Positions 2,083-46,680 of a stretch of 64,000 nt of DNA are shown here, piece after piece; position 1 is the stretch's first letter; every line of letters starts with the position of its first letter. The notes under the pieces were generated by a model, which was not told the origin of the DNA, did no database searches, and saw only the letters and a program-made list of their open reading frames with translations. The DNA is taken from contig CM119264.1 in NCBI GenBank assembly GCA_051294375.1, positions 11,259,832 through 11,323,831 of the forward strand, in the 5' to 3' direction. Both the position numbers and the translations under genes were made by a program. The stretch comes from Paraspadella gotoi (taxonomy: Eukaryota; Animalia; Chaetognatha).

Positions 2083-2496
2083 CTGCGTGAGAGGACGGCG
2101 AGAGGGAGGGGCAGAGAGAGAGAGAGAGAGAGAGAAACGGATCTATTGTATTGATAAACTAACTTCAACTGCAATTTAAAAAAAAACTGAGTTTGGACAA
2201 ATTTTTCGACTTAGCCTAAGCTCTTGTCCAGACAGCAACCTTTCAGGTTTTTATCATTCCAGAGATGGTATATTTCCATTTTCTTTTTCCTCCTATAAAA
2301 CGAACCGTGCTAAGTTTAAACGCTTCTTTAATGAATAGCGGGTTCGTTCGATCGTTTATTTTTTGTTTTGTTTTTCTTGTTTTTTCGATAATTAGTTGGA
2401 TTATTCGTTCTTATATTCGTTTTTTTTTTGTACTTCTAACGTTCATTCGTTTTTTTTTTGTTCGTTCGTTCTTTCCCTCTCCCCTCCCTCCCGCAG

Positions 2497-9880
<7,384 letters not shown>

Positions 9881-11007: not shown

Positions 11008-14000
11008 CTGGGGGGTAGGGGTAGTGAAGGGCGGAGAGGGTTGTAGGAAAAGGGGAAAGAAAAACAGAAGTTATATATAAGTATTAAATCTTTAAATTAC
11101 CTTAAATGTTTCTAATTGAATGAAAAGTTAGCGTGCTTTAAATTCCAAGCTGCTTATATTGTAAGTGTTTAGCTAACATGAAAACAAAAAAAAACACGTT
11201 TTCATGATCCGATTTGCAATAATATAATCGCCTTTTCTGATAAGATTTATTGGGTTAGCATTCCGAAATGAACCCATAAGCTATGGCAATCAATGATTGT
11301 TTACACTCTGTCACGAGTGTAATTGATTGTTAATCGAATATCAAGCGAGCGTCAAAAGCTTTTTGTTGGTGCCGACCAAAGAAAAAAAAATCATTGGGGG
11401 GAAGAAAAATCGATACAGTACCTTTCTCATTCAATCACTCACATCACACTTTTCCTCTCTATCCGTATGTTCGGGACTCAGGGTAGGGAGGGCACGAAAA
11501 GAAGAATGGGGTAAGGAGAGATGAAAGGTAGAAAAGGGGAAAGAGGAAGGTTAAAGCAAAATAGTTGAGAGGGGAGAGGAAAAGTAAGCAATCGAGGAAG
11601 AAAGAGGGAGTAAAGAAAAAAAGCGGAGATGTTAGAGAAGAAAAACCAACCAAAGAAGAGAAGAAAGACAAAAGAAAGAAGGGAAAGAAGAAAAATAAGA
11701 AAAAAAGTAGGGGTAGGATCGGGGAGGGAGAGGGGAAAAAAAAATTTGAGTTCGCAGGTGCGTAAAGCCGTCGCGAGGGCGGAGCGAGGCGGGGCAGAGC
11801 GAATGTCACCTTTCACACCTTTCAGAATTTCAAAAGGCGGAAACGTGCTAAGCTTTCCCGAAAGGGGGAAAAGCGGGGGAGGGGCCTCTGAATCAAGGAG
11901 GTGGGAAATGGTGGGTGCGTGGGGGTGGAATCTGAATGGAGTGAAGAGTGGAGGTGTGAGAAAAGCCTGTAGTAGGTTTCGCAACGGGAAACCATAGACG
12001 CGGGGAAAGAAACCGGAACTGAGGCGACAACCCGGATTCGTTTCCGGAATTTTTTTTTTCCCTTTCGCTCGGAGAAACACGAAAAGTGAAGGATGACGTT
12101 GGTTTTTTATGTCGGTGAATTTTTTTTTCTTTTTCCGCTGTCGGATTAACCTATCGATCGAACAACTTTCGATATTTCACTCCGACGTAGTCACTACGCA
12201 TCGTTGCATCCCAATGGTGAGTGTCCTCCTGTTATGAACTTTCTTTACCCTTTATCCCAACCGTCGTCTTTCCATTTAAAACGACCTTTCAACTTCAACC
12301 TTAGTCGGTACTCTTAACCTTTCACCTTAACTCACACTTCAGCGTTACTTTAATTATGCATGTAAATTGTAGAATTGTGGAATTTGGGGATAAGGCGCTA
12401 CGTGGGCTGAAGACTTCTGGAACGGGTCCGGTGCTCGATGGTTTTCTTGGCCCTCAAGGTCTTACGGCCGTCCTAATTCTTCTTTTAGCGTGCGTGGGGA
12501 TCGATCTCAGTGCCTAATGGTCATAAGATGATGACTTAACTCAATGAGCTACCGGTTTCAATGGTTATTGTTTGAACCTTGCAATGCCCGACTACATGCA
12601 TCTCTGCCTCAGTCTTGACCCTTCATCTCTAGTTCAGTTTCGACCCTTCATCGTGACCATTTCCATTAAACCTTCCTTTTGAGTTTGACCCTTCATCTCA
12701 ACCAGGTTCTCAACCTCGTCTTGACCCTCCGTCGTTGCTTCGGACTCGGAAGTTGGCGAAGATGGTTTTTAACCTCGGCATTCGACCTTTCGATTTCCCA
12801 TTTTCCGACCACTCATTTTTCATCGTCTCGCATCTGAGATCAATCCGACACTGAGTTGACCCTGAGACCTCGTTCCCGAGATCCCGAGACCTTGCGAACC
12901 TCGGATGATAACAACTCGATATAACTGGTGATCGAAAAAACACGGTTCAGCAGGGAATCTTCCCGCTTTGCATCTATTTTAGCCACTTGTTAGCCAATAC
13001 ACCGCTATTTCTTTTCCATTTAAAAAAAAAAAATAATGAAACGATGTAAATAAAATTTGGCAGTAGACTATAGCAATACTTTAAAGTTAGAATGTCAAAA
13101 CAGAATTGGGAAAAAGGGATAACCGTATATTAGCGTTGATGACACTTCATTTCTGACTCATGCTTACGATTTGGAATTAACATAATGATAATGAAATTAA
13201 ACATATAGAAGAGTAAGCAAAAAAATTGTTTTACTTTTCTATAAAAAATTGTTTACAATTACTTCAAAAAATGACATTTTAATGATAAATCCTAAAAATA
13301 TTCTTTTTTTAATTGTGTTAAAATGACAAAATGTAAATAATGGTTTTGTGGCGAATCCTAAATTCGCCTCCCGTATAGCTTGGTGAAACTCAGCTCGTCC
13401 CATTGACTTGGACAGCTAAGTACTTGTTCACGAACCGTGAGTTCCGGGTTCAATCCCCTACCGGTCACGCTGGTTAAAGTGTGATGGTGTCATCATAAAC
13501 ACGCCAGTGACATGAGGTGGTCACTGCAGGTCCAAAGCCTTGAGCGCCAGCTGTCGGGAGATTCTTCACACCCCAGGCATCACACATGTCCTCCCCTTTT
13601 GCCATAGATTCAATAAAATTGTAGGAAATGGACCAGAAGATGGATCTGATAGACCAAATGGTTTGCCTATCTTGGTTTTTCCATCTTTTCTCTTTTCTCC
13701 TTCGACAGAAAGAAAAGAAATTGGTTGTGAAAAAGCTTTGAAAATAACTTAGGGTAAGTTATCACTAATCTGCTTGTTCGTTTCTGGTGAAAGATTGTTT
13801 TTCCATATATGTTTTATGTCTCTGAATCTCTGTAAAATCCAGCCATCCAATACGGTATTTTTTGGTATGAAAAAAGTGGCTACTTTTGTGAAATTTAAAA
13901 GATAATTAAAATTTCTGTAATACTTAATCCTTGTAATCGAGTGTAGGCTAAAGATCACGCATTCAGACCCATATCTTCTTACATTCCTATTTAAATAATA

Positions 14001-21260: not shown

Positions 21261-24200
21261 CGCAAAAACCCTCTCTTCTCGAGTCTTTTTTTTTGTTTCC
21301 TTCCCCGCCGTGCCGCCAGTCGTTTCGAATTTCGACCGCGGGAGTCGAGAAGATGCTTTATCCTCGTAAAGTCGTAACGCTTTCAAGTTTAGAGCTTAAT
21401 GTTCTACTATATAGCACGCCTTACTTAGTATTCGAAGAGTGCTACTTTTTTTTATAGAACTTACATATTTTTCGGTTTCGTTAAAGTAGATTAAAATGAA
21501 AAAAATTGATCTTAAAAATTTTTAAATTTGAAATGAAATATCAGCGATACTAATTTAAATTGCGAAGAACGTAATAAATACTTTATTATTTAAAATAAAA
21601 TTCAAAAGGATATCCGCTCGTTGACAGTGGCCACCCCATGGAAAAGTGAGTATGTGCCTTAGCTTATTTCAGTGGACCCCGAGAGAAACGAAAATCCATC
21701 GAAGCTGCTTAGCTGCGCTGCGGTTTGGTGCTGAGTTCCCAGCTTTCGCCGCAGAAATCTACAGCTGCTGTTCATTACCGATAGTCGTCACTGAGGTTAT
21801 TCGCTACCACGAGTTCCCTAGGGCCACCCAATCTTCAAGCCCCTCACCCAAACCGCGATTCCTTTCCCTCACCTTGAGCGCTTCGTGAATATAGATGGCG
21901 GTGAAGACGGCTGCGTAGGCCGAGAGCGAGGCGTGGAGGGAGGGAAAGCTCAGCCTGGCCTCGCGGTACCACCAAGAGTTGTCGGGTTGGCAGGACAACA
22001 ACGAGTCGGCCCAACCTGCCTGAGAATGGAATCGTTTTCGTTCACCTGCGGGAAAGAGTCGGGCGTGGCAGAAGGGGGGGGGCGGGGGCGGGCGGGGGAG
22101 CGGGGCAGGGGAATTTGTAAGGCGGGGGAAAATTTTAAGTTGCAAATAGTCGTCGGGTGGGAGATTTGTCACTTTAGATCGTCGATTTGAGAGTCGGTCG
22201 ATTTAGTTTGATAAATCGATTTGGAGCAGAGGAAACCATTTCGAATAAGTTGTACTAGTCTGCTTAAAAGGGCTTATTATTTCATTTTGACCGTCTGAGT
22301 AATGGTTTACTAAAATTAAAAGCAGCGCTTCGCGTCTCCTTATTCTTATTTTCGTTCCATGATAATTCCCGCAATGCCGCAGTGGAGAATTGGCTGATCA
22401 AGAAACGTACTTGTTATCGTATGACGACTGGCGCGCCACTGGTGTGAAGATATGGCCCCCCCTTTCCCCTTATTTTTTACAAGCTCGCGCTTCTCTCTCG
22501 GCGATCGAAAAAAGAAGCCGAGTGGCGCCGGGTGGCGCCGAGTCGCCGCGAGAGGGATTTCTCTTGTTTACCGCTTAATTTATTCATTCGAAATTCTCCC
22601 TAAAGACTTGAGACTCAACACGAAGCCGAAGGTTTGACAAACAGTTTTTTTGGGTTTTTTTAGTTTATATTGAAAACAATTGATTTTTAATAAAGATTGG
22701 AACTGTTTTAGCTAGCTCGTGTTCTCCTAAAGACGATTCATTGACCTAGGAGCTGAGTTGGAAGTATGACGTATTTATATAATTATATATATATATAATG
22801 AATCAGAGGACAGTCACAGTCCGTCAAATTCTCATAATGATTGACTGTAAACACAGCATCTAATTTAATAAAAAAAAAATGGCGGGCCCACTCACTCGAC
22901 CATTCAAACAACTGTGTCCTCTTTGTCCTCTGCGTTGAAAACAGTTTTGCAAATTCATGGCACAATTTACTACGCAATTAGTCGAACGATGTGGTAAATT
23001 AAACATAGCGAAAACGATGGCGCAGATTTAAAAAAAAAAACGAAAGAAACCAGGTAATTAAAGCCCTTCCCCTTGCCCTTCCCTTCCCCTTCCCTTCCCT
23101 TCCCTTACCCCGCCGCGCCGAAGCGATCGAAGAGGAACGACCTTTTTTTAATCGCGAAACCCAGATTAATAAAAAGCTCATGAAAGATGGATTGAGCCCG
23201 GCGCCCGATCTATCAAACTCCTCCTTAAAAAAAAAACCACCTGTGGGGAGAAGAAGAAATGGAGGTGAGGAAGGAAAGAAACGAAGAATTAAGAAGGAAA
23301 GAAACGAGGAAAAAGGAAAAAAAAAGGAAATAATGAAGGCGGAAAAAGAGAGGAAAAAAAGATGAGAGAAGAAATGAAGACAAAAATAACAGTGATTAAG
23401 AAAAACTGGGACTGAAGCCTCGAGAAAGGCGCGTTTAAAGGTCATTACATGAAAAGGGGGAAAAAGGGAATTTTGCCCACAGTTCAGAGGAGAAAAAGAA
23501 AAGATGAAAAGAAAATTATCAGTTAAAAAAATAAGGAGATATTTCGAGAAAGAAAGGCAGTTAAGGCAAAGGGGGAGGAGAGCACTTGAGGTGGGAAAAA
23601 CGCTGCGAGGGAAAAGGAAAAGAAATAAAGAAAAAAGGAAAACGAAAGGAGATTTGAAAGGAAGAAGGCAAAAATTCGCTTGGGGAAAATATGTACAAAC
23701 GATAAGCAATGGGTAAAGGAGAAAATAATGAAGGGGAAAAACGCCCCGAGATGAGATGAAAAGAAAAAGAACATACATGAGGAAACACGCTTTCAAATCT
23801 ATCGAGCAAGAAAAAAATAGACAAATGAACGCATAATGAGAAACGAGCGCTCAAGGCAAAAACGGAAAAGAGAAAGAAAGAAAGAACAATTCCAAAAAAA
23901 AAAAAAAAAAAACAGAGAAAAAAATGATTAGAGAGAAAAAGAAAAGTAAGACATATTCCATCGATCTTACTCTTCTCATATTTAAAGGGAGGAACAGAAC
24001 GGGAAAATAGAGAAAAAATAAAATGGTAGGAAACGGAAAAAAAAAAATGTGATAGAAGAAGTAAAAAGAAACAAACAAAGTTAAAGCTTGCCGATAATAG
24101 AAAAGAAAGATAGAAAAACAACAACAAACAACGAAACAAAAGTAAACCTAGACGAAGAAGAAAAGGAAAAGAAAAAAAAAAGAAAGAAAAAGACGAAACG

Positions 24201-25498
24201 ATCAAATGTTTAAACGGAAGGAAAAAGAAAAAAGAGTAAAAAAAAAATGAGGTGGAAAAACTCTCGCTTTTCCGAGGAGAGACAAACCTGATAAGGCAAG
24301 GTCGCCTCGATTCCTTGGTTCACTCAATAATTCATTAATACATTAATTAACTAATTCATTCATTCATTCATTCATTTTGTGATTAATTAATGAATTCATT
24401 CTTTCGGTGAATTTTTTTCATTTATTCCCTTATTCATTAAATTATTTTCATTCAACCTAATTCATTATTTAATTCTGTCAGGCGACTAAAGTCGACTAAA
24501 GTAAAGAGAAACAAACAGAAACAAAGAGACAAAGAAAATGGAAAAAGGAAAAACGCGAAGAATAAAAGAAGTACAAATGCATAAATCGAGATTCACATTC
24601 TTCAGTTGGAGACGAAGGTTTATTCGTTCTGCGTCGCGACTTTGGGAGACGAAAGAATTTGTCAAAGTGAAAGAAAATGAAAGGAATGATAACAATCTAA
24701 AGATAAGGTGACTCGTCAAAGAGACAAACAAACAAACAAACCAGGCGACAGTCGGCTAGCGCACAGTCCGTGCGTTCCTGGTTCAATCCCGCGTAACTCC
24801 GGCCTCCCTCTTAGTTAGCAAAGCGTGATGGTTCTGGGGTTTTCTTTTTTCCTTCTTTTTTTCTCTATTCTATTATGTTTTCGTTTGCTCCGACTTAGTC
24901 TATATTTGTTGATTATTTTCGCACCGAATCAACCTTGTTGTATTCGAATAAAATCGAATGTATTAATTATAAGTATGAAGCTCCCCCAGCGCTTGATAGG
25001 TGATCCGCGCCGTTGACATACGATTCCAATTTAAAAAAATTGCAATGAAAAAATTAAAACGTGACATAAATTCGTCTTTTAAAACCGGAACGGACGCCAT
25101 CTAGATTTTTTCCCCCAAGAACCAACAATCGCCTCCTTTACTTTCTTCAATATTTTGACCAGAAACGAAACTTGTTTACTTTTCCCCGTCCCCATGGAAA
25201 CGGGGTTTGTTTTCGACGACGCCCGACCGGAAAATTGGCTTGGAGAGTTGTTCGAAAATGGCGAGAGGATCGTTTTGGACGAAGGATCGGGTTACATCCG
25301 GGGCCAGTCGATTTAGCAGCGAGGAGAATGGCAAAAGAAAGGGAGAAGAGAGAAAGAGGGATAGAGACAAAGATAGAAAGGCTTAAGACTCAATCGCTAG
25401 TATCAAAAGACTTTGATCCCTATTTTTGACCCTGGCCTCGCTCGCTCTTATTCTTTCCCGTTGTTCCTCTTTTTAACTTGATCCCTCTTTCTTCAAAT

Positions 25499-25540
<42 letters not shown>

Positions 25541-25583
25541 TCCCCGCTCTCTCGTCTCCTCTCTCTTTTCTTCTCTCTCTCTT

Positions 25584-25627
<44 letters not shown>

Positions 25628-25653
25628 CTCTCTCTCTTCTTTCTCTTCTCTCT

Positions 25654-25692
<39 letters not shown>

Positions 25693-26650
25693 ATCTCTCT
25701 CTCTCTCTCTCTCCCGCCACGAAACTCATTGGACCAGATGCAGGAAACGAAAAGAAGGGCGACTCAGGAGATCAACTTCTCTCCGATTAGATTTAAATAT
25801 TCGACCGGAGGTTTAATGGGCACATATAGTTTTCGCCTTCATTTCCTCGCTCTCTCCCTTTCTCTCTTCCCGTTCGTGAGAAGAGGGGGGGGGTTGAGGG
25901 GAGTGGGGGGGGGTAGGATGGTGAGAGAGGTTGGGGATCACGGGTAGTGGGGTTAGGGTCACGAATTTCGAGGTGGGCAAACGGACGGAGGTACTAAGTG
26001 GTGATTTGAGATCCGAATAAGATTTTGTCGTTGTTGATGAAAGTCGGGAAATGGCGCGAGTGGGAGAGATTGCGGTGTGACGAGTGCTTTTTTAAAAAAA
26101 TTCCAAAGTTTGAAAATTCTCAAAAATTTTAACCGATAATCGATCCTGAGTTTGTATCACAATTTTTTTCGCTTAGAGTCGTTTTGAGATCGAACACGAA
26201 TACGAATCGTCAGCTTTTTTTTAGTGGGGGTGTAGAAAACGGGGGGGGGGTTGTTTTAGCCTTCGTCACACCGCAATCTCTCCCACTCGCGCCATTTCCG
26301 ACTTTCATCAACAACGACAAAATCTTATTCGGATCTCAAATCACCACTTAGTACCTCCGTCCGTTTGCCCACCTCGAAATTCGTGACCCTAACCCACCGT
26401 GATCCCCAACCTCTCTCACCATCCTACCCCCCCCCATCCCCTCAACCCCCCCCTCTTCTCGCAACGGAGAGAGAGAAGAGAGAAGGGAGAGAGCGAGGAA
26501 ATGAAGGCGAAAACTATGATGCCCATTAACCTCCGGTTCGAATATTTAAATTCTAATCGGAGAGAAGTTGATCTCCTGAGTCGCCCTTCTTTTTCGCCCT
26601 GCATCTGGTCCAATGAGTTTCGTGGCGGGAGAGAGAGAGAGAGAGAGATG

Positions 26651-26701
<51 letters not shown>

Positions 26702-26728
26702 CGAGAGAGAGAGAAAGAAGAGAGAGAT

Positions 26729-26759
<31 letters not shown>

Positions 26760-26761
26760 AG

Positions 26762-26810
<49 letters not shown>

Positions 26811-29800
26811 GAGAGGAGAGAGCAGAGAACGAAGAGAGAGAGGAGAGAGAGAGAGAGAGGTAATTTGAAGAAAGAGGGATCAAGTTAAAAAGAGGAACAA
26901 CGGAAAGAATAAGAGCGAGCGAGGCCAGGGTCAAAAATAGGGATCAAAAGTCTTTTTGATACTAGCGATTGAGTCTTAAGCCTTTCTATCTTTGTCTCTA
27001 TCCCTCTTTCTCTTTCTCCCTTTCTTTTGCCATTCTCCTCGCTGCTAAATCGACTGGCCCCGGATGTAACCCGATCCTTCGTCCAAAACGATCCTCTCGC
27101 CATTTTCGAACAACTCTCCAAGCCAATTTCCGGTCGGGCGTTCGTCGAAAAACAAACCCCGTTTCCATGGGGACGGGGAAAAGTAAACAAGTTTCGTTTC
27201 TGCGTCAAAATATTGAAGAAAGTAAAAGGAGCGATTGTTGGTTCTTGGGGAAAAAATCTAGATGGCGTCCGTTCCGGTTTTAAAAGACGAATTTATGTCA
27301 CGTTTTAATTTTTTCATTGCAATTTTTTTTAAATTGGAATCGTATGTCAACGGCGCGGATCACCTATCAAGCGCTTGGGGAGCTTCATACTTATAATTAA
27401 TACATTCGATTTTATCGAATACAACAAGGTTGATTCGCGTGCGAAAATAATCAACAATATAGACTAAGTCGGAGGCAAACGAAAACATAATAGAATAGAG
27501 AAAAAAAGAAGGAAAAAGAAAACCCCAGAACCATCACGCTTTGCTAACTAAGAGGGAGGCCGGAGTTACGCGGGATTGAACAGGAACGCACGGACTGTGC
27601 GCTAGCCGACTGCTCGCCTGGTTTGTTTTGTTTGTTTGTCTCTTTGACGAGTCACCTTATCTTTTAGATTGTTATCATTCCTTTCATTTTCTTTCACTTT
27701 GACAAATTCTTTGTCTCCCAAAGTCGCGACGCAGAACGAATAAACCTTCGTCTCCAAACTGAAGAATGTGAATCTCGATTTATGCATTTGTACTTCTTTT
27801 ATTCTTCGCGTTTTTCCTTTTTCCATTTTCTTTGTCTCTTTGTTTCTGTTTGTTCTCTTTACTTTAGTCGACTTTAGTCGCCTGACAGAAATTAAATAAT
27901 GAATTAGGTTGAATGAAAAAATAATTTAATGAATAAGGGAATAAAATGAAAAAAATTCACCGAAAGAATGAATTCATTAATTAATCACAAAATGAATGAA
28001 TGAATGAATGAATTAGTTAATTAATGTATTAATGAATTATTGAGTGAACCAAGGAATCGAGGCGACCTTGCCTTATCAGGTTTGTCTCTCCTCGGAAAAG
28101 CGAGAGTTTTTCCACCTCATTTTTTTTACTCTTTTTTCTTTTTCCTTCCGTTTTAAACATTTGATCGTTTCGTCTTTTTCTTTCTTTTTTTTTCTTTTCC
28201 TTTTCTTCTTCGTCTAGTTTACTTTTGTTTCGTTGTTGTTGTTGTTTTTTCTNNNNNNNNNNNNNNNNNNNNNNNNNAAAAAAAAAAAAAAAAAAAAGAA
28301 ATTCGGAACGTTTAAAGCCGGAAATTTAAAACTGATCCAGAATCCAAAAAAGAAATTGGCTTATAATTGGTTGTTAAAACAACAAATTGACAAAATTTAA
28401 AAAATTCAAGCACTGGAATCATAATGCTAAGTTATGAGCGATTTTTTGTCTCATTTTCCAGCAAAAACGAAATCGAATTTTAGCCGTCTCTGTCTTTTTT
28501 CTTTTGTCCTCTCTTTCCTCTCTTTATCCTATCTATTTTCTCCTCTCTCTCCTCTCGGGTCGGCCATTTAATGAAATTCAATTCCGCTCATTTAAAAGAA
28601 CCACCCACAACTCACAATATTCCTCCACGCCGATTTTTCTTTTTTTCTTTCTCAAGAGTTGAATTGAGAAGAATATTTTCTGAGCTCGTGTGTAAAATCA
28701 AATTAGGTTGCACTCTCTCTAGAATTGCGAGAAAATATTTGAGAAAGGAATCCTTTAATCCAAGTTGAAAACTATAGCATTGCGTTTTCAGATGCTCTCA
28801 CGTATAAAGGTTGATTGGGGTATCGTATCGATCGAGTTTAAATAATATTTTTTCTATTTTTTCATGTTATAAAAACCTCACGAATCTCCATCTATAATTT
28901 GACGCAAATCAGTTTTCATCTAACCTTGCAGATGGAGAGAAAGTAAGGTCTGGGCATTCCCGTCATGATTTTGATGAGGTCGGTGAGAATGAGGGTCATG
29001 AAAATTCCTGAAACGCAAAAAGGGGGCGTGGAGGGAAAAAAATAAATAACATTTTTCCGACCTTTCTCCATCACGGACTCCGTGATGTTCGCGCGTCGCA
29101 TCCAAATGTGACGTGATTCACGTGAGACGTATTATTAATCACAACTCACCCAGAGAAAAATTGGCGAAGAATCGAACTAATCTTTTCATGAAGAGAGGAG
29201 TTTGACATCGACGGCAGCAGGGTTCCCCCCTGAAAATTAAAAATGAAAATTTGATTTATTAAGGACAAAAAAGACTTTCATCGCTCTTTGCTGGGAATTT
29301 CGCGGATTTTCATTGCGAGTTGAAACGTGAATACTGATAGTGGGACAATCGAATTGGAGCCATTAATTTTTCTGAAACCACGGGCATTATCTATAATTAA
29401 TTATATGGTTTATATTAATAACATCAATTATATTTAAAACGAGAGATTGCTTTGGGATAAGGTGTGACAAAGGTGTTGGCATCTGTGCTCAGATGGGATA
29501 GCGGGACGGGAATCGTCATCTTGTAACGTCAAATAATGTAAATCTTGTGAAGTAAAATACATAAATTCTGCAATTTGTCGAAAAATTAATCACCGGGCGA
29601 GAAACTTTCAAATCCTTCAAATTCAAAACTTTCAAATCTTCGACGATTAAAAGGATTTTCCCTTCGCGTTGCTAAACTCGCCGACTTTTTATTGAACAGT
29701 CAACTCTCAACTTTCGCTTCAGCGCCCGGAGGTCTCGACTTCTCTAGAGCGCACGTCGTACGCTCGTACGTCACGACGATGAGACAACCCAGCCCCCGCC

Positions 29801-33271: not shown

Positions 33272-36200
33272 CGATGATGCGGAGTGGCAGAGGGGGTTGT
33301 CGAGGTCTTCGGGGTGAAGTCGGTTGTGGGAGAGTTCGATCGATTTGCCGGTAGGTGGCGGTGGAGATGAGAGAATCCTTAGTACTCTGGAAAAGCTCCG
33401 ACGATTTCGTTGAGATCAAGATGAAGGACCACGTTGCATTGCAATTGCTTCAATTATCAGTTTGCGAGCGTTGGACTAACAGTATTTTTTTCCATTTCTT
33501 TGAGTTCTAGTAATTTTCTTTAGTTTATTTAGTAAGTTTATTTTATTTGGTCAATATTGTGGATAAAATTACTATTATTGTTTTCAGTAGAGGATTCTCG
33601 GTTCTCCGACAGGAGAACATTTTTTTAACAACCGCAATATACCAAGGATATGATATAGAAATGACTACAACCACTTTATAATAACCAATATGAAACTGGA
33701 TATATATTCATTTAAAAATGAAAAAAATTTACCTAAAGAGTCTTCATTTTATTTTAACTTAGATCTTTTAACATAAAAAAAACAAAAGGTCAGAGGGTAG
33801 TTAAGATTAAAACAAATAAAAACAAGTTTAACAATAGAATTAACAACGCCGCCCACTTAGCACCTTCGTCGCCAGACTGGCTCGAATTATATTTTTTTTT
33901 TCTGGACCAAAGAAAAATGGCGGTTAATGCGTGCGTATAATGATGAGAAAATGGGTCCTTCATGGCTAATGAATGTTAATGGATACGAACTCAATATCGC
34001 AATCTCTCTCTCCCCCCTTCTCTTTCTCTATCGCTCGTTATTTCTCTCCCTCCCTTTTTTCTCCCTCTTGCCTCTTCTTTTATGGTCGGAGATTTTCGGA
34101 TAGAAAGGAGGCAGAGACCCCGACGATTCTTTTTTCGAACTTGATACCAGGTGGCCTTTTTATTCATCCATCTGGCGACAGGTTTTTTTTTTTCGGTGCC
34201 TGCCTCAATAATAATGTGTTTTCTCATCGAAATCGTACAATCGTTGATTTATCTTTTTAATTATGACATCGATTACATTATTAATATGAGATCATTACTA
34301 AACAAATAAAAATAAATAAATAAAAACAAGTTTTCTATAAGAAGTTAAAACGCCAATGCAAAAAAGGGAGGAAAGAGAATGGGAGAAAAATATATAAATA
34401 ATTTGGATTAGAAAGGAAGAAAGAGCACGTTTCTAAGAAAAAAAAAACATTCCAAATAGCAATATAAGTTAAAACTCACTTAATTTAATGATAAGAGCAA
34501 GAATAAAATAGAAAGTTAGTTTGAAGACGAGAGCGAAAAGGAAAGATTTGGGATTAAGCGGAAAAGAGTCTCTTTAATGGTTACGTTTTACGGGAAGACG
34601 TTTCCCCATTTTCTCCCAAATTCTTTTTTATGCCACAAAAAAAAATCCATTCGCTTTAAACTCTGCGCGGGTTAAACTATTTTTTTCACTTTCCAACCGA
34701 ACTTTTCACTGACAAAAGACGAAACGGAGGTGTTAAAGTCGTTTCCGTCGTCGTCCTCGTCGTCGTTGCCGTCGTCATTCTCTTCCTCTTCATCGAGAGA
34801 GACGTTCTTATTTTAGAAATAAAAAAAAAGGTTTGATGACCCCTCTTCACCCCAAACAATGAGGAAAAGACTCTGCTTTCTATCCGACAAAGAGCAAAAC
34901 GCGCCAAAGAAATGCAATAATTGCCATCTTCATTTTCATTTTCTCTAATTGAATTCTTTAGATTTTAATTGTGGAAATGAATTGGGAGAGAATAAAGTTA
35001 AAATTAAAGAAGATGAAGAATAAACCAGAGGCTGCGCAAATACATGTAAATCGCTTTCAATGGCTTAAACTGAACTGCTACTATCGCACAAATAATCCCA
35101 CCCACCAATACATTAAACAAAGTCGCAATCTTTTAGCGGGCAAATGCACCATCCTGATCTTGCGTTCGGGGATCAATCCGGGCGGCTTCTAGATAGTTCT
35201 AGTGGTTGAAGGCGATCAACAATGATCCGAAGCTCTTAACGCACTGCGCATCACATTTTAAAAAGAATAATTGTTAAAGAAGCTGTTTAATAGTTATATG
35301 TACATTGTACACGGAGCTACTAAGTACCTTCGAGAGGCGCATTCACGCGACGAAAACTGTCCGACCGCCCGCCCGCCCGGCCCCGCCCGCCCGCCCGCGC
35401 CCGGCGACCGACCGACCTGTTCCTCACTTCGACATCCGTTCCCGCCTCCAAAGCAGTCGGATTCGCCTCGAGAGACGTATTAAGAAAGGGCCAGGTTCTC
35501 CCTAATTGAAAATTTTTTTTTTTTTTTTTCTAAAAATAAAATTCAAACAATTAAGGATCATTGCGGACATTGCAAATTGGAAAAGTATTAATTGAAAAAG
35601 AGCCTCTTTTTTCGGATTTCGGAAGCGCAAATGATTTCCGACGAGGGGCGAGGCCGCGGAGACGAATTAGGGGGCAGGTCGCTCCTTCTCGCGCCGACCA
35701 AGCCTTTCGTTTCACGTCGGCGTCGTCGTCGTCGTCGTGTTCGTTTTCGAGGTCGTCGTCGTGATCGTCTTCGATGTCGTCGTCATCCACGAAGCCGATT
35801 CGACGGGAAGAAAAGTGAGGAAAAAGAAAACGAAGATCGATAATGACGAAGACGAGAACAAAAGTGACGATAAATGCGACAGTAAGGATGACGACGATCA
35901 TGATCGTGAGGATTATTATTTAAAGACGAGAGCGATAAAATAGCGAAGACGTTGAAGATAGAAATAAAAATGACGACGCAATCGCCGATGATGATTAGAA
36001 GGACAAAGTCTGGCTGGTAGAAAGGGAACAACGGTGAAAAGGAGGAAAGGAGAAGAGGGCAGAACCAAAAAAAAAAAAAAAAAGAAAAGCAGCAGAATGA
36101 CCCTTTGGCCATTGTGCAAAGATGCCATCAATGATGGAAGGAATATCGGCCGAGATATATAAAAAGCCATTTCCATTCCCATTCGCGATATCTTATTTTT

Positions 36201-39200
36201 TACTCTTTTTTTCCAACTTCCTTTTATTTAAGCTTTTCATTTAACTCGATTTAAATATTATTTTATACATTTTAAAGTACGAATTAATCGCAATAAGAAA
36301 GTTTACTCTTAAGATAATTGAGATTTCGGGTTACAAGGAATTTAATTCATTTAGAATTAGATGTGAAGCCAAAAAATTAAGTTGGTTATCTAACTCACTG
36401 TATTATCTACTTAGACTTTGAAAACCATAAAAAGAGTTTTTTATAATTGATAATAACATATAGTCACCAAAAACTAGTGTTTCATTCTAGGCTAAAATCT
36501 GTCACCGAAAATAAATTTTCATAATAACAATAGATATCCAAAATCCCCATTAATCTTCGATATTTTTGAACAGTTACTCTTTCCCAAATTTCAAAGTACA
36601 ACCCCCGCGTCTTTGGCCAAACCGTAAAACACGGATGTTTCGTCTTCGATCAGAATGCTGGGATCTTCGAATTCGATCACTTCTCCCTGATGCATCACGA
36701 TCACTTTATCATAATCGAGGATGGTGTTTATGCGGTGGGCAATTGTCAACACCGTCGCGCCGCCAAACTCTTTCGCGATCGTCTTCTGGATTAATTCGTC
36801 CGTCCTCACATCGACGGCGGCTGTGGCTTCGTCAAGAACGAGGATCTCAGAATCCCTCAGGAGCGCCCGCGCGAGACAGACGAGTTGACGCTGCCCAACG
36901 GAGAGGTTCTCGCCCGACTCTGCGCATTGGTGACTGAGACCTTCGGGCAGGCTGGAGATAAAGTCTTTCAGATGCGATAGGGTCAATACTCTCCAAAGTT
37001 CTTCGTCTGCATGGAGATTAAAGGGGTCGAGGTTCATCCTTAACGACCCGGAAAATATTATTGGATCCTGGGGAATGATGGAGATTTTCGAACGGAGATC
37101 GTGCAGGCCTAAATTTTGGGTGTCCTCTCCATCGATCACAATGCTGCCCGATGCCGCTTCAAGGATACGAAATAAAGCCAGAGTGAGGCTAGACTTTCCA
37201 GCACCAGTTCTTCCCACGACACCGATGCGTTGTCCACCAGTGATGCGAAGGTTGATGTTTTTCAATACCAATTCCAAATTTTCTCTATATTTAACATTGT
37301 AGTTTTTGAAGAGTATGTCGCCTTGATCTGGCCAGATGTTTTTCAGGGAATCAGAGCGATCATTTCTCCAGGGAGCTTCGACGGGTAGGGTCGAGTATTC
37401 TCGCACCCTTTCAACGGCAACAAATTCGTTTTCCATTTCCGAAGACTTACGAACAACGTGTGTCATAATGTGCACGAAAGTTACGGCGTAGGCTATTGTA
37501 AGCCCGGCATCACTGACCGTTGTTGACGTGTCTAAAATTGTAGAGAGTGTGCTAAAGAGAATTATGGGCGAAGCGAGTTGTTCAATTACAAACGTCATCC
37601 ACTCATCCACTGTCCACATGAGGAAAGCCGATTTGAGATTTTCTTTCACGCGTCGACGAATCTCTTCTTTGAAATGGTTCTGCTTGCCAAAGGCTCTGAT
37701 AACCACGAGTCCTTGCAACGTTTCAGCAAACAGCGAAAAAATCGGAGACCTCGTGATTGACTCAATTCGACGAAGTTGACGAGTTGAAGAAATGGAGAAT
37801 CGCTGGACAATGAAGAATAACCCAAGGAAGAAGGGAGCTGGGACCAGGAACCAGGGCTTCACTATGGCAATGACGATCGGAGTTCCGATCAAGAAAATGA
37901 CAGTGTTGTAAAAGAGGAAGAGAATTTCGGGAATTTTAACATCGATACCATCCATGTCGACTGAGAATCGATTCATGATTCTACCCAAAGGGGTAATGTC
38001 AAAAAAAGTCAAGGGGCAAGACAGCACACGCTTCACCAAATATTCGTGAAGGCGACGAGAAGCCCCGATGGAACTGTATATGTGAAATCTTATAGCGATG
38101 AATATTAAAACTGATGCTCCGAGTCCCACGCCGACGTAGATGCTTAGATTATGAGAATTCACTACAGTTAAAACAGTTGAATTTTTTCGATTTTGAATCT
38201 CATCAGTCCACTTGGAGAGCTGAAAGTTTGAGGTCATCTCCAGGACTCGTGCCACGATGAAAGAGAGAAACATCATTATGGTAACAAACTTTCCCGAGGA
38301 TGCCAAATAGGCAATGAACATTTGAAAACTCACGAAGCCGTGCTGCCTTTCCTCATCTTGAATTAGTTTCCCATCCCCCTCAGTAGTTTTTTCTTCGAGG
38401 CTTGGCTGATTTGACTGATTAATATCCAATTGATCTTTTGCTGTATATTTTTTTTCATTTAGTTGATTTCGAAAATTTTTTACATATTGAGAAAAATATC
38501 CGTTACCACCGATTAGATCTGCATACTTTCCTTTTTCTAATATTCGTCCATCTTCAAGGAATAAGATATTATCCATTGCAGGGAGGTAGTTTAGCACATT
38601 AGTGACAATGATTCTGCTCTTTGTTCCCAGTAGTCCTTCAAAAGATAGAACTTTGTCATAAATGTGTTTTCCAACATGCGCATCTACGGCGGAAAGTGGG
38701 TCGTCCAAGAGATAAAGATCTGCATCAGCATATATAGCTCTCGCAAGGGAAACCCTAAGTTTTTGTCCTCCAGAGAGATTGATGCCCCTGTCGCCAATCT
38801 CTGTGTCATCACTAGCAGGTAAAGTTTTCAGATCAAGTTGCAGGGCGCAAGCCGTGATGACCGAATGATACTTTTTAGCGTCCAATGGCTTTCCAAACAA
38901 TATGTTATCTTTGATTGTTCCATTTTGTATCCAAGGTTGTTGAGAAACGTATGACACCTTTTTTAAGATTCTTACAATACCCTGTACTCTGTGGATTTCC
39001 CCCAAAATGGCTTTGAGTAAAGCAGATTTTCCTGATCCAACTCTTCCGACTATAGCAATCATTTGACCGTTTTTTACTTTAAAATTTAAGCTTTTAAGGA
39101 ATGGCTCATCATTTTTATTCCATGCAAAAGATGCATCTGTGACGTTTACGGCGATGTCTTTGGCATGTTGATGGATTGCTGAATCAAACTGAAATTCCTC

Positions 39201-42200
39201 ACTCACTAAAAATGCGTCAATGCGTTTTCCTGACACAAACATATGAATACTGCTTATGAGACTCATTGGTAATACCCACAATGGTACTCTTATGTTGTGA
39301 AGGACAGAAAGGGTTACAAATGCTCTTTTCGCTGTCAGAATACGGTCATCCAACAGAACAAACACTGAAAACAAGACTATGATTAAAAAAATTGGAGTAG
39401 CTACAATAAAAAATTTTATAAAACCATGCCACAAAAGTTGCACCCGATACATTTTGACTTCACTATCCCGAATTTGATTGATTTGATCAATGAAAGAACC
39501 TTCCCAAGCGTAAAACTTGAGAATTTTGATGCTGTTAAGGACTTCACTAATTTTTTTTACTCTTTCATCCTTGAATTCCATGTGCTTCTCCTGCAATGTT
39601 TTGGTTTTGTTGCCAATGAGAATGCAGATGGGAAGAAAAACCACAAAGACAGCAAGACCAGCAAAAACCGAAACCCCAACCTGAGAATAAATGATCCAAG
39701 TGCCGAGTAAAATGTGAAGGGGAGTGAAAATCCCAATTATAAAGAGTTCTAGACCATCAAAAAACTTTCTTGCGTCAACGCTCATGAGATTAACGATTTC
39801 TCCAACTGGCTTTGCCTGAGATGCGGCCGAGGTTAAGCGAAGGCTTTTGTCAAATATGGCTATGGTGAGAATGCTTTGAACCTTTAGACTTAAAATGCGA
39901 TTCAATAACCAAAATTGATTAATGCAGTAGGGCAGGGTGAAAGCGAGAACAAAGATGAGAGCGACGTAGAAAGCACCTTTCCAGTACCATTCACTTTCCC
40001 TCTCTTTGCTGTCAAAACCCTCTGTAGGTCTGATTGACAAGTGGTTCAACAACCAGCCAAGGATGAGTGGTTTTCCAAGTTCGTTAAGTATAAAAATGAT
40101 TCTTAAAAAGCTAAGAAAAAAAAGAGTTTGAATATGGCGCCAGAGCAAAATTCTATTCACTGAGGAAATATTTTTACAATTATCAAATTTAACCTCTGAA
40201 TCATTTTTTTTATTATCTCCTGCTGCAGAGGGATCTTTATGAGAGTTTTTGAAATATTCTTCATAGAATTTAGTCATAATCTGCTCTATCTGCAACTCCT
40301 TTGGCAATTCCTCTAAATCTTGATTATCCAGAGGCTTCTTGAAGCCTCTCCACAAAAGCGGTGTCAGCCAAAAGAAGGTTAGCCTGGACAACGCGCTGGC
40401 CGAATCAAAAGACGATCCGGTAAGATTCCAGCTTTGGCACAAATTTACAGACAAAGAAACGAAGGACATTATTGTCATCAAGGAGACCGTCACGAGGATT
40501 TTCTTCTCCAGAACCTCTTCGAGAAAAGGAACGCTTCCAAGATTGGCCCGCGCGTAGTGCTGCAGCCGGAGAAGTTGACCGAGAAAGTGTAGAAGCCAGA
40601 AAGAGAGGACAACTGCGGATGCGGAGCTGGAGTATCTGGAGAGTCTCGTCAAGACGGCGACTATGATCAGAGAGACGACGAGCATAGAGCGATTAACGAG
40701 TGGCGCCGCAGATGCGTAGAAGATGGATGAAGCTGTTGATGACGCCGATGATGAAGCTCCTTCGACGACGAGCGCCAACTCGGCCAACGTTATCGCCGTC
40801 GCTAGGCCGATAACCATCTGCTTGAGCCAGTAATGACATCGCGAGTTGCCGTCTTGCTTCATTGAATATTTCGAGATTTTCGCAATGAGTTTTTTAAGAA
40901 ATAAGGGGAGGGCGAAAAGGAGAAATATGGAGGGAACCCAGGTGGGGATCGTGTCCAAGAAGCAGAGGGTCAAGTCAGGGCTGGAAGTGTACCACGAAAC
41001 ACGCTGATCCCAGAAGGGAGAGGCTCCGCAAAAATCCCCAAAGTAGATCGTCGCGTTTTCCAGGGAGGCCATCGTTTTAATTATTTTTTAAAAAGATGTT
41101 TAGTTTACTATATTTACAGGTTTAGTTTCGCATAAGTAACTTATTGATTGTGTTATTTTAATATTTTAAAATATCGTTAAAAACTTTTTCGTATCTTCCG
41201 AGGGTAAAATCGTTTTATGTGTGAAAGTAATTTTAAAAGATCCTGTTTGTTACCCAATCATTTTTAAACGCGAATTCAGAATGAAAAAAGTGGTCAGGTA
41301 AGTTTTTCTCATATTGATTCTGCAACCCTATTTAAAATTACACTGAAAAAGTTGGACTTTCGAAGCTGTAACAACAACAGATAGAAAAGAATTTCAGAAA
41401 GCACGCGATATAAAACCCTCCGAAAAGGGTTTCTGCTATGAGCAATTGAGCAATTGAGCATAACAGGACTTAATCAGAAACAATGACATCTGAATCTTAT
41501 TTTCGATTGAAAGCCAGTATGCGAGCGAAAGTGTATGTCAGCTTGCGTGTCTGTGTGTCTGAGAGACAATAAAACAGGGAAAGAATCAGACCGAGATTGT
41601 CATTGTTTCTGATTAAGTCCTGTTATGCTCAATTGCTCAATTGTAATTTTTACATTCGTTATGCTTACAAATGTCTGTAATTTCTCGGCGAGAAATTACA
41701 GACATTTGTAAACATAACGAAAGTAAAAATTACAAATGGTGTGGTCTTTTTGTACAATTTAAACATTCTTTGAAATATTTTCCACTTCATTGATAGGGAA
41801 GCCAGGTACTCTGGGAGTGAATAAACGAGACTGTGACTGTGTGAGAGAGTCTTGATTGAAAGCTTGCAGGGACCTGCTATGTCATTAACTTGTAAGAGTT
41901 AAACCACCCAAGCATGTCCAAAGTCATAGGTAAGATAGCTTATTTATTAAAAGAATGGATAATTTTTATATTGGTTGTACCAATTTCATATTATAGTATT
42001 TGCCATCGTCTTCATCAAATTCATTATATAGAATAGTAATCATGTAACAAGGCCAGAGTTAAGGTCCTGTCCGTCTGAAGTGGGAAGCCCTCTCTATTGA
42101 GGAAGGTTCTGGGTCGAAGTTTTTGGCGTCGTCTTCGTCGTCGTCGTCGTCGTCGTTCTCGTCGTTGTCGTCGATGAAAAAGAAATTCGAAGTCGAGAAA

Positions 42201-44165: not shown

Positions 44166-46680
44166 CAAGAAAATAATTATTTCTAATGCAATGAAGGTCT
44201 CGTCTCGCCGCAACGACTCTCTGTGCGTGCCAGGTCAATTTTTCTCCATAAAATGTTTTTTCTTTCATCTCGTCATAAAAAAAAAAAAAAATTCATGGCG
44301 AATATGATCCGGTTGTACGTGTACCATGATCTACGTACATATTTAGTTCAAGACTTGATATGACATTTCTCCGACAAAACCAAAGTCCGAATTAACTTCT
44401 TCTTTCTGAAATTTCTTTCCTTCTTACTTAAATCGATGAAGGGGAAAGAAAACCTCCCAGTGGAAAAACAAACTCATAACGCGGAAGACGAAAGATTGGG
44501 GGAAGGCAGAAAGCAAAACAAAAAACAAAAAATCCAATTACGAGTCAACGAAAAAAAAAATAGTGCGATTAGATTTAAGAAGGAAAATAGTTTATTTTCT
44601 TCGCCTCATTTCTTATTCATGGGGATTTTTTTCTCTTTGAGTTTCTCCTCCTTTTTTCTTTCGTCTTTTGTTGGTTTTTGTTTGTGACTTCTGTTTGTGG
44701 CCAAAATACTTGGAAAGACCGACTCCCGACTACCAAATCTTTGCACCGACACCCGAAAGCAGACGCCCGACGCTCGACAACAGACGCCCGTTGCCCGACG
44801 AGTTCTTTTTCTCGTTCCATCATCGTCGCCATCTTCGTTGTCAACGTCAAGGTCGGAGAATGCGCGTCGACGTCGTCGCAATCATCATCGAGGGGAGAAA
44901 GTATTTGTCTAGCTCTATCGTCGTCGTCATCGTCGTCTCTACCGTCTCTATCGTCGTCTTCATCGTCGTCTTCATCGTCGTCTCTATCGTCGTCTCCATC
45001 GTCTCTAACGTCGTCTCTATCGTCTTCATCATCGTCTCTATTGTCTTCAAAGTCGTCTCTTTCGACGTCTTTATTGTCATCTCTATCGTCTCTATCATGG
45101 TCTCTATCGTCGTCTCTATCGTCTTCATCATTGTCTCTATTGTCTTCATCGTTGTCTCTATCTTTGTCTCTACCGTCTCTATCGTCATCTTCATCGTCGT
45201 CTCTATCGTCTTCATCATTGTCTCTATTGTCTTCTGCATCGTCTCTAACGTCGTCTCTATCGTCTTCATCATCGTCTCTATTGTCTTCAACGTCGTCTCT
45301 ATCGTCGTCTTTATTGTCGTCTCTATCGTCTCTATCATCGTCTCTATCGTCATATCTATCGTCTGTATCGTATTCATCATTGTCTCTATCGTCTTCATCG
45401 TCGTCTCTATCGTCCATATCGTTGTCATCTTTTCCTCGTCAATCACTAAACGGAATCTTCCTTTAAAGTAACTTATAAACGTGATACTGTGGCAGCAAGA
45501 CTTAAAGCTGCCTCACTGCTGTCCGTCCTCAGCCTCGTCTCAATGGCTGAGCAGGCTAAATCATCTCATTCCATCCGTGCGTCCCGGGTTCAATCCCTGG
45601 GTATCCCGGTTCTGGCTTAAATGTGACGGTGCCGGTATAAACATGCCAGTGACAGGAGGCGGTCACTGAGGGTCCGCAGCCCCTACGCCAGTTGGTGAGA
45701 TACCCCGCGCCCCGGGTATCACAGGCTATCCTCCCGTTGCCATAATACCAGGCAGGAGGATGTTATATCATCTCCGTATTGATCCATTAGTTAGACCGTC
45801 GTTCACAATCGTCGTCGACTTCGTCGTCGTCGTCGTTCGCTCTGGGGATGTTCGTCGTCATTTTTCAACCTGGTTTCTCGGTGTTTCGACTGACCAAACG
45901 TCCGATTCGTCGTCGTCGTCATCGTTGTGATTGTTGTCTCCGTCGTCGTTTTCGTCGTCGTCAATCGTCGTCTTCGTCGGTTGCTTGATTCTCACATATA
46001 CAGAATACAGATACTGATCCCATGACCCGAAGTCATTCCGCAAATTTGAACAGACGAAACAAGAGAATCCTAATTGTGACGAACTCGACGAATGCGGATC
46101 AAATCGATGCCAAAAGCAAGAAAACACTTGCGGTGTCCTTAAGCCCGAAACAAAGAAACAAAGAAACTTAAATTTTAACAAAACGGCGTAAAAACAATGC
46201 ATAAGTTCCGGGTGGTGCCATCAGCGAGCGACTACGGAGAACAATAACGCCCGAGTCCTCACCTGATCGGAAAGAGGGCGGCGTTCTCCTTGAGCCAGAA
46301 GCGAAGGAAAAGCGCGAACGTCACCAGCGCCGTCAAGATGAGACCGGAATTCGTCACCAAAATTCCCTGCGGGGGACGAGACGAAAAAAAAAAAAGATTA
46401 GCGGGCCGGAGTAGATCCTGTCGGTTGGGGGCTCAAACTCGATGTCGCGGAAACAAAAGCCACCTGCGCTGATTTTTTTTTTTTGGTTTTACCTTCGTTA
46501 GCCTTCTTCACCTTTTTCTCTCTTTTTCTTTTTTTTTTTTGGTTTCTTTGCGAAAAAACAGGTGGCAGTTTTTTTTTAATGTGTTAAGATTGACTACTGC
46601 CTACTGGCTAGACGAAGATGCTCTTGCGGTGAGAAGTTGTATTTTATTTCTTTTTTAGTTTTTTTAGATTAATATAACAG

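What the first reader, a model, noticed from the sequence alone, without database searches (positions are those of the whole stretch)
13469..13551. Intact P5-type twister ribozyme, supported by covariation with a second copy at 45612-45691
Seen: the order P5-P2'-GA-T1-P1-UAA-P2-GC-P3-P4(L4)-P5'. Between the two copies paired bases change together: P2 GTGT/ACAC versus ATGT/ACAT, T1 pseudoknot TGG/CCA versus CGG/CCG, P4 CAGG/CTTG versus AGGG/CCCT. The unpaired core (GA, UAA, GC, L4 U...AGC) stays fixed. Known: this matches the twister core (L4 UCCYAAGC, UAA-N4-GC, general-base G just after P2') in the circular permutation opened at P5. Inference: the RNA self-cleaves at U/A in UAA (13496/13497 and 45638/45639). 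P1 is only 2-3 bp.
Basis: partly seen in the sequence, partly recalled or inferred. Interest (0 to 1): 0.92.

Follow-up and report, generated by a model that had tools for sequence, protein, structure and literature searches.

The report
Twister ribozyme inside animal LTR-like repeat
A twister-type RNA fold, predicted to cut itself, sits inside a 260-base repeat that is very abundant in this animal genome; the repeat's fixed ends, 4-base target duplication and tRNA-type promoter boxes suggest it is likely the left-over end piece of a tiny LTR retrotransposon that would spread through a self-cut circular RNA, as hammerhead 'retrozymes' are thought to do in plants.

Summary
The twister is real as a fold. 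All 27 predicted pairs, both pseudoknots included, hold in both copies, although 11 of 48 paired positions differ (4 pairs change on both sides). One core base differs in copy 2. Rfam gives no twister-P5 hit and folding predictions do not favour the active fold, so cutting is untested.

The ribozyme is the middle of a 257-260 bp dispersed repeat: TG start, 5' hairpin, Pol III-type A/B boxes, twister, 3' hairpin, TA end. Sequencing runs show it at roughly thousand-fold depth with sharp ends; copy 2 has a perfect 4-bp target duplication. Copies begin 150 nt before the cut site and carry no tail, unlike SINEs or twister-headed RTE elements.

Best reading (0.5): solo LTRs of a Helenus-type miniature LTR retrotransposon working like a plant LTR retrozyme, with a twister instead of a hammerhead. 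Two published wasp Helenus LTRs hold an unremarked type-III hammerhead at the same position (read by eye). No two-LTR copy, primer site or circular RNA was seen. No paper found describes this combination.

The parts
13347..13606 (+). Whole repeat unit, copy 1 (subfamily A), 260 bp, starts TG, ends TA, imperfect 6-8 bp terminal inverted repeat
   Evidence: sharp family boundaries
13343..13346 (.). Left target-site duplication of copy 1 (3 of 4 bases match 13607-13610)
13350..13368 (+). 5' terminal hairpin (7 bp); copy 2 has a 6-bp hairpin of different sequence at the same place; lies upstream of the predicted Pol III start
13404..13415 (+). Degenerate A box (clear A box in copy 2 at 45544-45555), 43 nt before the B box in both copies
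   Evidence: alignment
13447..13457 (+). B box in the loop of a T-arm-like hairpin
13470..13550 (+). Type-P5 twister ribozyme fold with P3 stem, copy 1
13483..13484 (+). G-A after P2': predicted general-base G and partner of the trans A-A pair
   Evidence: position by analogy to solved twisters (PMC5408937, PMC6154101)
13496..13498 (+). UAA junction; predicted cut between 13496 and 13497
   Evidence: sequence; cut site by analogy (PMC8501958 section 17); not tested
13531..13538 (+). Loop L4 carrying the T1 and T2 pseudoknot strands
   Evidence: partial Rfam twister-P1 match
13560..13581 (+). 3' hairpin after the ribozyme (7 bp, 13 of 14 cells paired across the two copies, one double change)
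   Evidence: helix 8
45488..45744 (+). Whole repeat unit, copy 2 (subfamily B), 257 bp, with a perfect 4-bp target duplication at 45484-45487 and 45745-45748
45612..45691 (+). Type-P5 twister fold, copy 2; predicted cut 45638/45639; C at 45677 in place of the conserved L4 A
4205..4465 (+). Copy 3 (subfamily B-like), decayed: general-base position, first L4 base and T1 altered, 28-nt insertion beside P1; lies in sense orientation in an intron of an OATP gene
24759..24832 (+). Short fragment: B-box hairpin plus the start of the ribozyme, then a T-rich tract
   Evidence: E 0.0013

Best explanation
The motif is a type-P5 twister fold in the middle of a 257-260 bp high-copy repeat with fixed ends and Pol III-type A/B boxes, and that repeat is likely the solo LTR of a Helenus-type, protein-less LTR retrotransposon in which the twister would cut the transcript once in each LTR to give a unit-length RNA that is probably circularised and reverse-transcribed by a Gypsy-type helper. 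Shown: the fold and its covariation, the repeat's anatomy, its abundance and sharp ends, a 4-bp target duplication. Inferred: transcription from the A/B boxes (start near 13397); cutting at U/A; a two-LTR parent with primer site and polypurine tract; ligation of the 5'-OH and cyclic-phosphate ends into a circle; integration by a Gypsy integrase; solo LTRs by recombination or short cDNAs. The reason for preferring an LTR route: copies begin about 50 nt before the promoter boxes and 150 nt before the cut site, so a linear RNA made from one unit could not regenerate its own 5' end, whereas an LTR-type or circular template can.
For: Fold: (11 of 48 paired columns differ, no pair broken). Abundance: summed contig depth 193,743-416,808 over the unit against 95.7 in the flank in run X2 (the tool warns that this is not a copy number). 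Fixed ends: in X2, 56+65 contigs leave the reference at 13346/13347 into unlike flanks (agreement 0.42), with 57+63 in X5 and 46+56 in X8; on the right the loose-end consensus runs through GCCATA and then turns AT-rich; no tail (best-supported rows only). Target duplication of 4 bp, perfect in copy 2 and 3 of 4 in copy 1; animal Helenus and plant retrozymes both make 4-bp duplications. A and B boxes lie inside the unit, as in Helenus LTRs. A hairpin upstream of the predicted start is kept with different sequence in the two subfamilies, as expected if the whole unit ends up in the RNA. No T4 run in copy 2; copy 1's only T4 is in its last 10 nt, where the family's loose ends show none. Precedent: Helenus-2_SyJa and Helenus-2_SyUm LTRs (277 bp for SyJa, 4-bp duplication, tRNA-Trp primer site) carry a complete type-III hammerhead after the B box, read by eye from the paper's DataS1. 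Mechanism by analogy: PMC4918200 Discussion.
Against: No two-LTR copy, primer-binding site or polypurine tract was seen: the window's copies are solo, and none of the 15 joints shown (of 74) goes back from the 3' to the 5' end. The right end is TA, not the usual CA (one animal Helenus LTR also ends so). ARAGORN and Rfam find no tRNA; copy 1's A box is degenerate. Rfam twister-P5 gives no hit. Predicted pairing probabilities of P2 and P4 are 0.04 or less in both copies without pseudoknot energy. Copy 2, and copy 3 with it, has C at the conserved L4 A. The covariation rests on two sequences and on a structure read from them (20 of 500 shuffles reach 5 double changes). No twister was seen by eye in the animal Helenus LTRs of DataS1 parts 5-9, and three L4 motifs gave 0 hits. 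The internal part of the wasp element has several T4 runs (by eye), so Pol III read-through is not assured even there.
Confidence: 0.5

Rival explanations
1. A tRNA-promoter SINE-like or Penelope-dependent monomer with an internal twister, analogous to the schistosome SM-alpha repeat (Pol III promoter plus hammerhead) or to animal non-LTR retrozymes; it would be made from tandem masters elsewhere in the genome.
For: Pol III boxes plus a ribozyme is the SM-alpha layout (PMC6765202 passage). Unchecked notes of this scan report P5-type twisters with weak P1 in Naiad pseudo-LTRs. No internal LTR part was seen.
Against: Copies have fixed ends that are not at the cut site or at the tRNA-like start, no tail, no tandem or inverted partner in the window, and a 4-bp duplication. 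Penelope-like insertions are 5'-truncated and tandem or inverted (PMC8557442 passages). No RT or GIY-YIG family among the 110 ORF scans.
Confidence: 0.2
2. A Helenus-type LTR that replicates by the ordinary linear route; the twister only trims or destroys transcripts, or frees the RNA from upstream read-through, with no circular stage.
For: Most Helenus families have no ribozyme and still spread. No circular RNA evidence here.
Against: A cut in both LTRs removes the terminal redundancy that linear strand transfer needs (PMC4918200 Discussion); the fold is kept by compensatory change across subfamilies.
Confidence: 0.15
3. A miniature DNA transposon (short terminal inverted repeats, 4-bp duplication) that carries a captured Pol III-twister cassette as a passenger.
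For: Fixed ends, short inverted termini and solo copies fit cut-and-paste spread.
Against: Termini match over only 6 of 8 bases; compensatory changes in three separate RNA modules are not expected for cargo that plays no part in transposition. That MITE termini are usually longer is recalled, not tested.
Confidence: 0.1
4. The twister likeness is a relic or coincidence and no copy cuts.
For: No Rfam twister-P5 hit; active fold not the predicted MFE; core change in subfamily B.
Against: All 27 pairs and 13 of 14 core positions are kept at 72% overall identity; the descriptor is rare in shuffles.
Confidence: 0.05

Closest known systems
Twister ribozyme, type P5 (class of Roth et al. 2014, not held and not read; described from PMC5408937 sections 8 and 11, PMC6154101 and PMC8501958 passages)
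   Same: P2 of 4 bp, P4 with the invariant G-C, T1, T2, UAA, G-A, optional P3 present, termini in P5.
   Different: P1 is only 2 bp with a 4-nt loop; no Rfam twister-P5 hit; subfamily B has C at the L4 trans A-A position; sits in a eukaryotic repeat behind Pol III boxes.
Helenus (TRIMp3), Kojima 2024, PMC10886601 (main text parts 1-4 and 6 of 6; supplement parts 1 and 5-9 of 11 plus one search)
   Same: A/B boxes inside a short TG-starting terminal repeat, 4-bp duplication in animals, solo LTRs common, length in range.
   Different: Carries a twister; no cloverleaf detected; ends in TA; internal part not found. The paper mentions no ribozyme in Helenus, although two Synergus LTRs contain a hammerhead by my reading.
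Plant LTR retrozymes, Cervera et al. 2016, PMC4918200 (passages and Discussion)
   Same: Non-coding, self-cleaving motif inside a terminal repeat, 4-bp duplication, solo LTRs, ribozyme predicted in a blocked fold.
   Different: Twister instead of type-III hammerhead; animal host; Pol III-type boxes; two-LTR form and circular RNA not shown here.
T-variant twisters of Perere-3 (RTE-type non-LTR element), Liu et al. 2021, PMC8501958 (passages, section 17)
   Same: Twister tied to a retroelement of an animal.
   Different: There the twister is type P1 at the 5' end, the duplication abuts the cut site and an RT follows; here the cut site is 150 nt inside a non-coding unit.
Schistosome SM-alpha repeats and animal non-LTR retrozymes (PMC6765202, PMC7761336, bioRxiv 10.64898/2026.07.22.740005; passages)
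   Same: Short non-coding animal repeats with a ribozyme, SM-alpha with a Pol III promoter.
   Different: Those use type-I hammerheads and occur as tandem arrays; this one is dispersed, monomeric in the window and has LTR-like ends.

Membership tests
Twister ribozyme | P2 (4 bp) and P4 with invariant G-C | tested here: met
   helices 2 and 7, 100% paired in both copies
Twister ribozyme | Pseudoknots T1 (3 bp) and T2 (2 bp) | tested here: met
   helices 3 and 5; T1 has one double change
Twister ribozyme | Conserved core: UAA, G-A, GC, L4 U and A-G-C | tested here: met
   13 of 14 core columns identical in both copies
Twister ribozyme | L4 adenine of the trans A-A pair that extends T1 | tested here: inconclusive
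   A in copy 1, C in copies 2 and 3; effect on cutting not found in the passages read
Twister ribozyme | Stem P1 | tested here: met
   2 bp in both copies; P1 typically has at least 2 bp and is dispensable
Twister ribozyme | Site-specific self-cleavage at U/A | not testable with these tools
   no raw RNA reads were offered
Twister type P5 | Termini in stem P5, P1 closed by a loop | tested here: met
Twister type P5 (Rfam family) | Score at the Rfam gathering threshold | tested here: not met
   0 hits at gathering; no twister-P5 hit at E up to 10
Helenus (TRIMp3) | A and B boxes inside the terminal repeat | tested here: met
   A box clear in copy 2, degenerate in copy 1
Helenus (TRIMp3) | Similarity to a tRNA gene | tested here: inconclusive
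   boxes and T-arm only; ARAGORN 0, no Rfam tRNA hit
Helenus (TRIMp3) | 4-bp target duplication (animals) | tested here: met
   perfect in copy 2, 3 of 4 in copy 1, not readable in copy 3
Helenus (TRIMp3) | TG...CA termini | tested here: inconclusive
   TG...TA in both copies; one listed animal Helenus LTR also ends in TA
Helenus (TRIMp3) | Two LTRs around an internal part with PBS and PPT | tested here: inconclusive
   not in the window; 15 of 74 joints shown, none goes back; no genome held
LTR retrozyme | Type-III hammerhead in the LTR | tested here: not met
   the ribozyme fold is a twister
LTR retrozyme | Circular RNA between two cut sites | not testable with these tools
   only contigs available
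tRNA-derived SINE | tRNA-like head at the 5' end and a LINE-like or simple-repeat tail | tested here: not met
   boxes begin 57 nt inside the unit; no tail in the window copies or loose ends
T-variant twister of RTE elements | Copies begin at the cut site, RT downstream | tested here: not met
   copies begin 150 nt before the cut; no RT family in the scanned ORFs

The most novel reading that the evidence does not exclude
Animals have LTR retrozymes after all: Pol III-promoter miniature LTR retrotransposons that replicate through a self-cut circular RNA and accept any small ribozyme in the slot behind the B box, a twister in this genome (thousands of copies, at least two subfamilies) and a type-III hammerhead in gall-wasp Helenus-2. 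This would give type-P5 twisters a defined job in eukaryotes and join Helenus and retrozymes into one class.
Probability: 0.4. Interest if true: 0.82.

Novelty: new variant of a known kind. Interest (0 to 1): 0.7.

Why it matters
In the papers read, the role of genomic twisters is established only for a type-P1 variant at the head of a non-LTR element, and LTR retrozymes are described as hammerhead elements mainly of plants. A twister inside a Pol III-type LTR of an animal, in a family with very many copies and at least two subfamilies, would be a third way of using the ribozyme. It would make the circular-RNA model of LTR retrozymes testable outside plants. The copies are also a natural mutational series for the twister core (2-bp P1, C at the trans A-A site). 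The same layout with a hammerhead in published wasp elements suggests that the ribozyme class is interchangeable.

Tried and rejected
Rfam at gathering on the whole window: 0 hits. No whole genome is held, so copies could not be collected, and subfamily B's abundance, ends and core conservation remain unmeasured; only copy 1 was laid against sequencing runs.

A 21-letter pattern shared by both copies gave 3 viral and 17 metagenome loci; 0 of 20 pass the twister descriptor or match the repeat beyond the pattern; Rfam found only tRNA hits and a sub-threshold tmRNA hit in the 3 viral loci and nothing in 4 of the 17 metagenome loci scanned.

No RNA holder listed. Run X9 is only guessed to be RNA; it shows 248 contigs on the unit, a raised depth at 13415-13474 tied to one variant, and its lowest depth relative to X2 around the predicted cut, but the dip is slight relative to X5, and contigs cannot show ends: no evidence either way.

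My first idea, that published Helenus LTRs generally carry twisters, was rejected. A plain SINE was my first reading and was dropped on the ends.

Host phylum: a protein search timed out, a second found nothing at E 1e-30, and the Atlas was not discriminating. Roth et al. 2014 is not held.

Literature searches without a description of a twister in an LTR, TRIM or Pol III repeat: 0 papers; 0 papers; judged from listings and from the passages cited. Most subscription journals and Repbase entries are not covered, and the supplement of Roth et al., which lists twister loci by organism, was not seen.

Full report
1. The observation. The sequence at 13469-13551 reads P5, P2', GA, T1, P1, UAA, P2, GC, P3, P4 with L4, P5', and 45612-45691 repeats this in register. 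A descriptor using only the generic twister core finds these two places and no other on either strand. With 3 bp of P4 required, shuffled windows give a mean of 0.04 hits, at least one in 10 of 300 and at least two in 2 of 300. Without P4 the descriptor is weak (at least two hits in 39 of 300). P3 (7 bp) and P5 (5 bp) come on top and were not in the descriptor.

On the two-copy alignment all 27 ribozyme pairs are standard pairs in both copies; four change on both sides (one in P2, one in pseudoknot T1, two in P4) and three on one side. Eleven of 48 paired columns, 7 of 19 loop columns and 1 of 14 core columns differ. The controls are modest, because there are two sequences and the structure was read from them: 20 of 500 shuffles reach five double changes over all 34 pairs, while slid partners pair at 31-40% against 98.5%.

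Results against the reading: Rfam has no hit at gathering, no twister-P5 hit at E up to 10, and only a partial twister-P1 match on copy 1 (17.3 bits, E 0.86). The differing core column is the L4 adenine that forms a trans A-A pair extending T1 in the crystal structures (PMC5408937 section 11); copies 2 and 3 have C there. The nested twister fold scores -18.9 against an MFE of -30.8 kcal/mol in copy 1 and -20.2 against -26.7 in copy 2, pseudoknots not counted. A short P1 is not an obstacle: P1 typically has at least two pairs and is dispensable.

2. The surroundings. The window is animal-like: microsatellite-rich, with a multi-exon OATP gene at 2220-9880 (+) and an intronless MRP1-like ABCC gene at 36591-41072 (-) whose best solved relatives are labelled MRP1. 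The phylum was not resolved. The ribozyme is one module of a dispersed repeat. BLAST and a profile search find copy 1 (13347-13606), copy 2 (45488-45744), a decayed copy 3 (4205-4465) and a fragment at 24759-24832. Each full unit has a TG start, a 5' hairpin, an A box and a B box 43 nt apart, the twister, a 3' hairpin and a TA end. The A box is clear in copy 2 and degenerate in copy 1; no tRNA cloverleaf is detected. The 5' hairpin is kept with different sequence in the two subfamilies, and the 3' hairpin has 13 of 14 cells paired. Copy 2 has a perfect 4-bp target duplication, copy 1 a 3-of-4 one.

Four of nine listed runs were laid on copy 1 at 80% likeness; all are contigs. In X2, 2958 contigs lie on the stretch, with summed depth 193,743-416,808 over 13355-13564 against 95.7 in the left flank. 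The tool warns that this is no copy number; I read it as an order of thousands. The ends are sharp: 56+65 contigs in X2, 57+63 in X5 and 46+56 in X8 leave the reference at 13346/13347 into unlike AT-rich flanks, and on the right the loose-end consensus runs through GCCATA and then turns AT-rich, with no tail (best-supported rows only; 774 not shown). X2 reports 14 places with at least 3% other letters; I could place 13, none in the catalytic core, and one C-to-T place is among the rows not shown. Copy 1 differs from the bulk of its family at four ribozyme positions (two in the P1 loop, one in the P3 loop, one in P4). The competing fold predicted for copy 1 uses the P1 loop, so copy 1 may not be typical. 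A homogeneous family does not by itself show selection; the comparison between subfamilies does.

3. How it most likely works. The unit starts about 50 nt before the predicted Pol III start and 150 nt before the predicted cut. A linear RNA made from one unit would lack its own 5' end, so a plain SINE or a twister-headed RTE element (PMC8501958, where the duplication abuts the cut site) does not fit. Fixed ends, short imperfect inverted termini and a 4-bp duplication fit integrase-type insertion. Internal A/B boxes in such a unit define Helenus LTRs, whose animal members make 4-bp duplications, leave many solo LTRs and are thought to use Gypsy helpers (PMC10886601). A ribozyme inside an LTR is the layout of plant retrozymes: cutting in both LTRs removes the terminal redundancy, and the RNA is proposed to circularise before reverse transcription (PMC4918200 Discussion). 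I therefore propose solo LTRs of a Pol III-type miniature LTR retrotransposon that works as a retrozyme with a twister (0.5). My separate estimates: the fold is a selected twister, about 0.93; typical family members cut, about 0.85; the unit is an LTR, about 0.65.

A supporting precedent turned up in the Helenus supplement. The LTR consensus sequences Helenus-2_SyJa and Helenus-2_SyUm hold, after the B box, what I read by eye as a complete type-III hammerhead with complementary loops I and II; the SyJa family is listed with a 277-bp LTR, a 485-bp internal part, a 4-bp duplication and a tRNA-Trp primer site. The main text mentions no ribozyme in Helenus. This was not run through any tool. The other animal Helenus LTRs in parts 5-9 showed no twister by eye, and three loop motifs gave 0 hits in the file, where line breaks can hide matches. 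The internal part of the wasp element has T4 runs, which is a caveat for Pol III read-through.

What is missing is the two-LTR parent. Rivals: a SINE-like or Penelope-dependent monomer (0.2), a linear-route LTR in which the twister only trims transcripts (0.15), a miniature DNA transposon with the cassette as cargo (0.1), a non-cutting relic (0.05).

4. Comparison and novelty. It has the defining sequence and structure features of a type-P5 twister but fails the Rfam threshold, and activity is untested. It is not an LTR retrozyme by strict definition (no hammerhead), and Helenus membership is open on the internal part. Nine searches aimed at this combination showed no description of a twister in an LTR, TRIM or Pol III-type repeat; a July 2026 preprint still places LTR retrozymes mainly in plants, with type-III hammerheads (passages). 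Earlier notes of this scan hold no look-alike sequence and none combining Helenus with a ribozyme; they report P5-type twisters in Naiad elements, unchecked. Papers seen as passages only: PMC6765202, PMC10085705, PMC7761336, PMC5680766, PMC6154101, PMC9901934, PMC8782182, PMC12859917, PMC8557442 and the preprint. Roth et al. 2014 was not available.

5. Verdict. Observation confirmed with two small corrections; interpretation partly supported and incomplete. New variant of a known kind, interest 0.7; 0.82 if the animal LTR-retrozyme reading holds (probability 0.4).

Noticed in passing
PMC10886601 supplement, DataS1: Helenus-2_SyJa-LTR and Helenus-2_SyUm-LTR: Both published wasp LTR consensus sequences contain an apparently complete type-III hammerhead after the B box, with loops I and II complementary over about 12 nt; the paper's text does not mention it. 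Read by eye only.
   Followed up: partly
window 4205-4465: The one copy lying in sense orientation inside an intron (OATP gene, 2220-9880) is the one with a broken core; a single case, but what selection against self-cutting introns would give.
   Followed up: partly
window 24114-26083 and 26263-28249: A 2-kb inverted duplication at 95% identity whose arms differ almost only by single-base indels, with the window's N run at 28253 beside it; probably a fold-back assembly artefact. It means single-base errors in this assembly are possible.
   Followed up: partly
window 36591-41072 (-): A 1493-aa MRP1-like ABCC transporter in a single open reading frame, in a genome whose neighbouring OATP gene has introns; possibly a retrocopy.
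   Followed up: no
window 13625-13700: A second, less abundant repeat begins about 20 nt after copy 1 (summed depth up to 16,286 in X2).
   Followed up: no
run X9 on window 13379-13471: One variant of the promoter half makes up about a quarter of the depth in X9 but under 3% in the DNA runs; it could be one highly transcribed copy if X9 is RNA, which is only a guess.
   Followed up: no
L005:1940-2110, L017, L020: Three related metagenome contigs share a conserved non-coding-looking stretch with a GA-NNN-hairpin-TAA-NNNN-GC likeness to the twister junction but no matching L4 within 80 nt downstream and no Rfam hit.
   Followed up: partly
window 35122-35180: Weak match to the A/B-box part of the repeat (E 0.063); no ribozyme follows.
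   Followed up: yes
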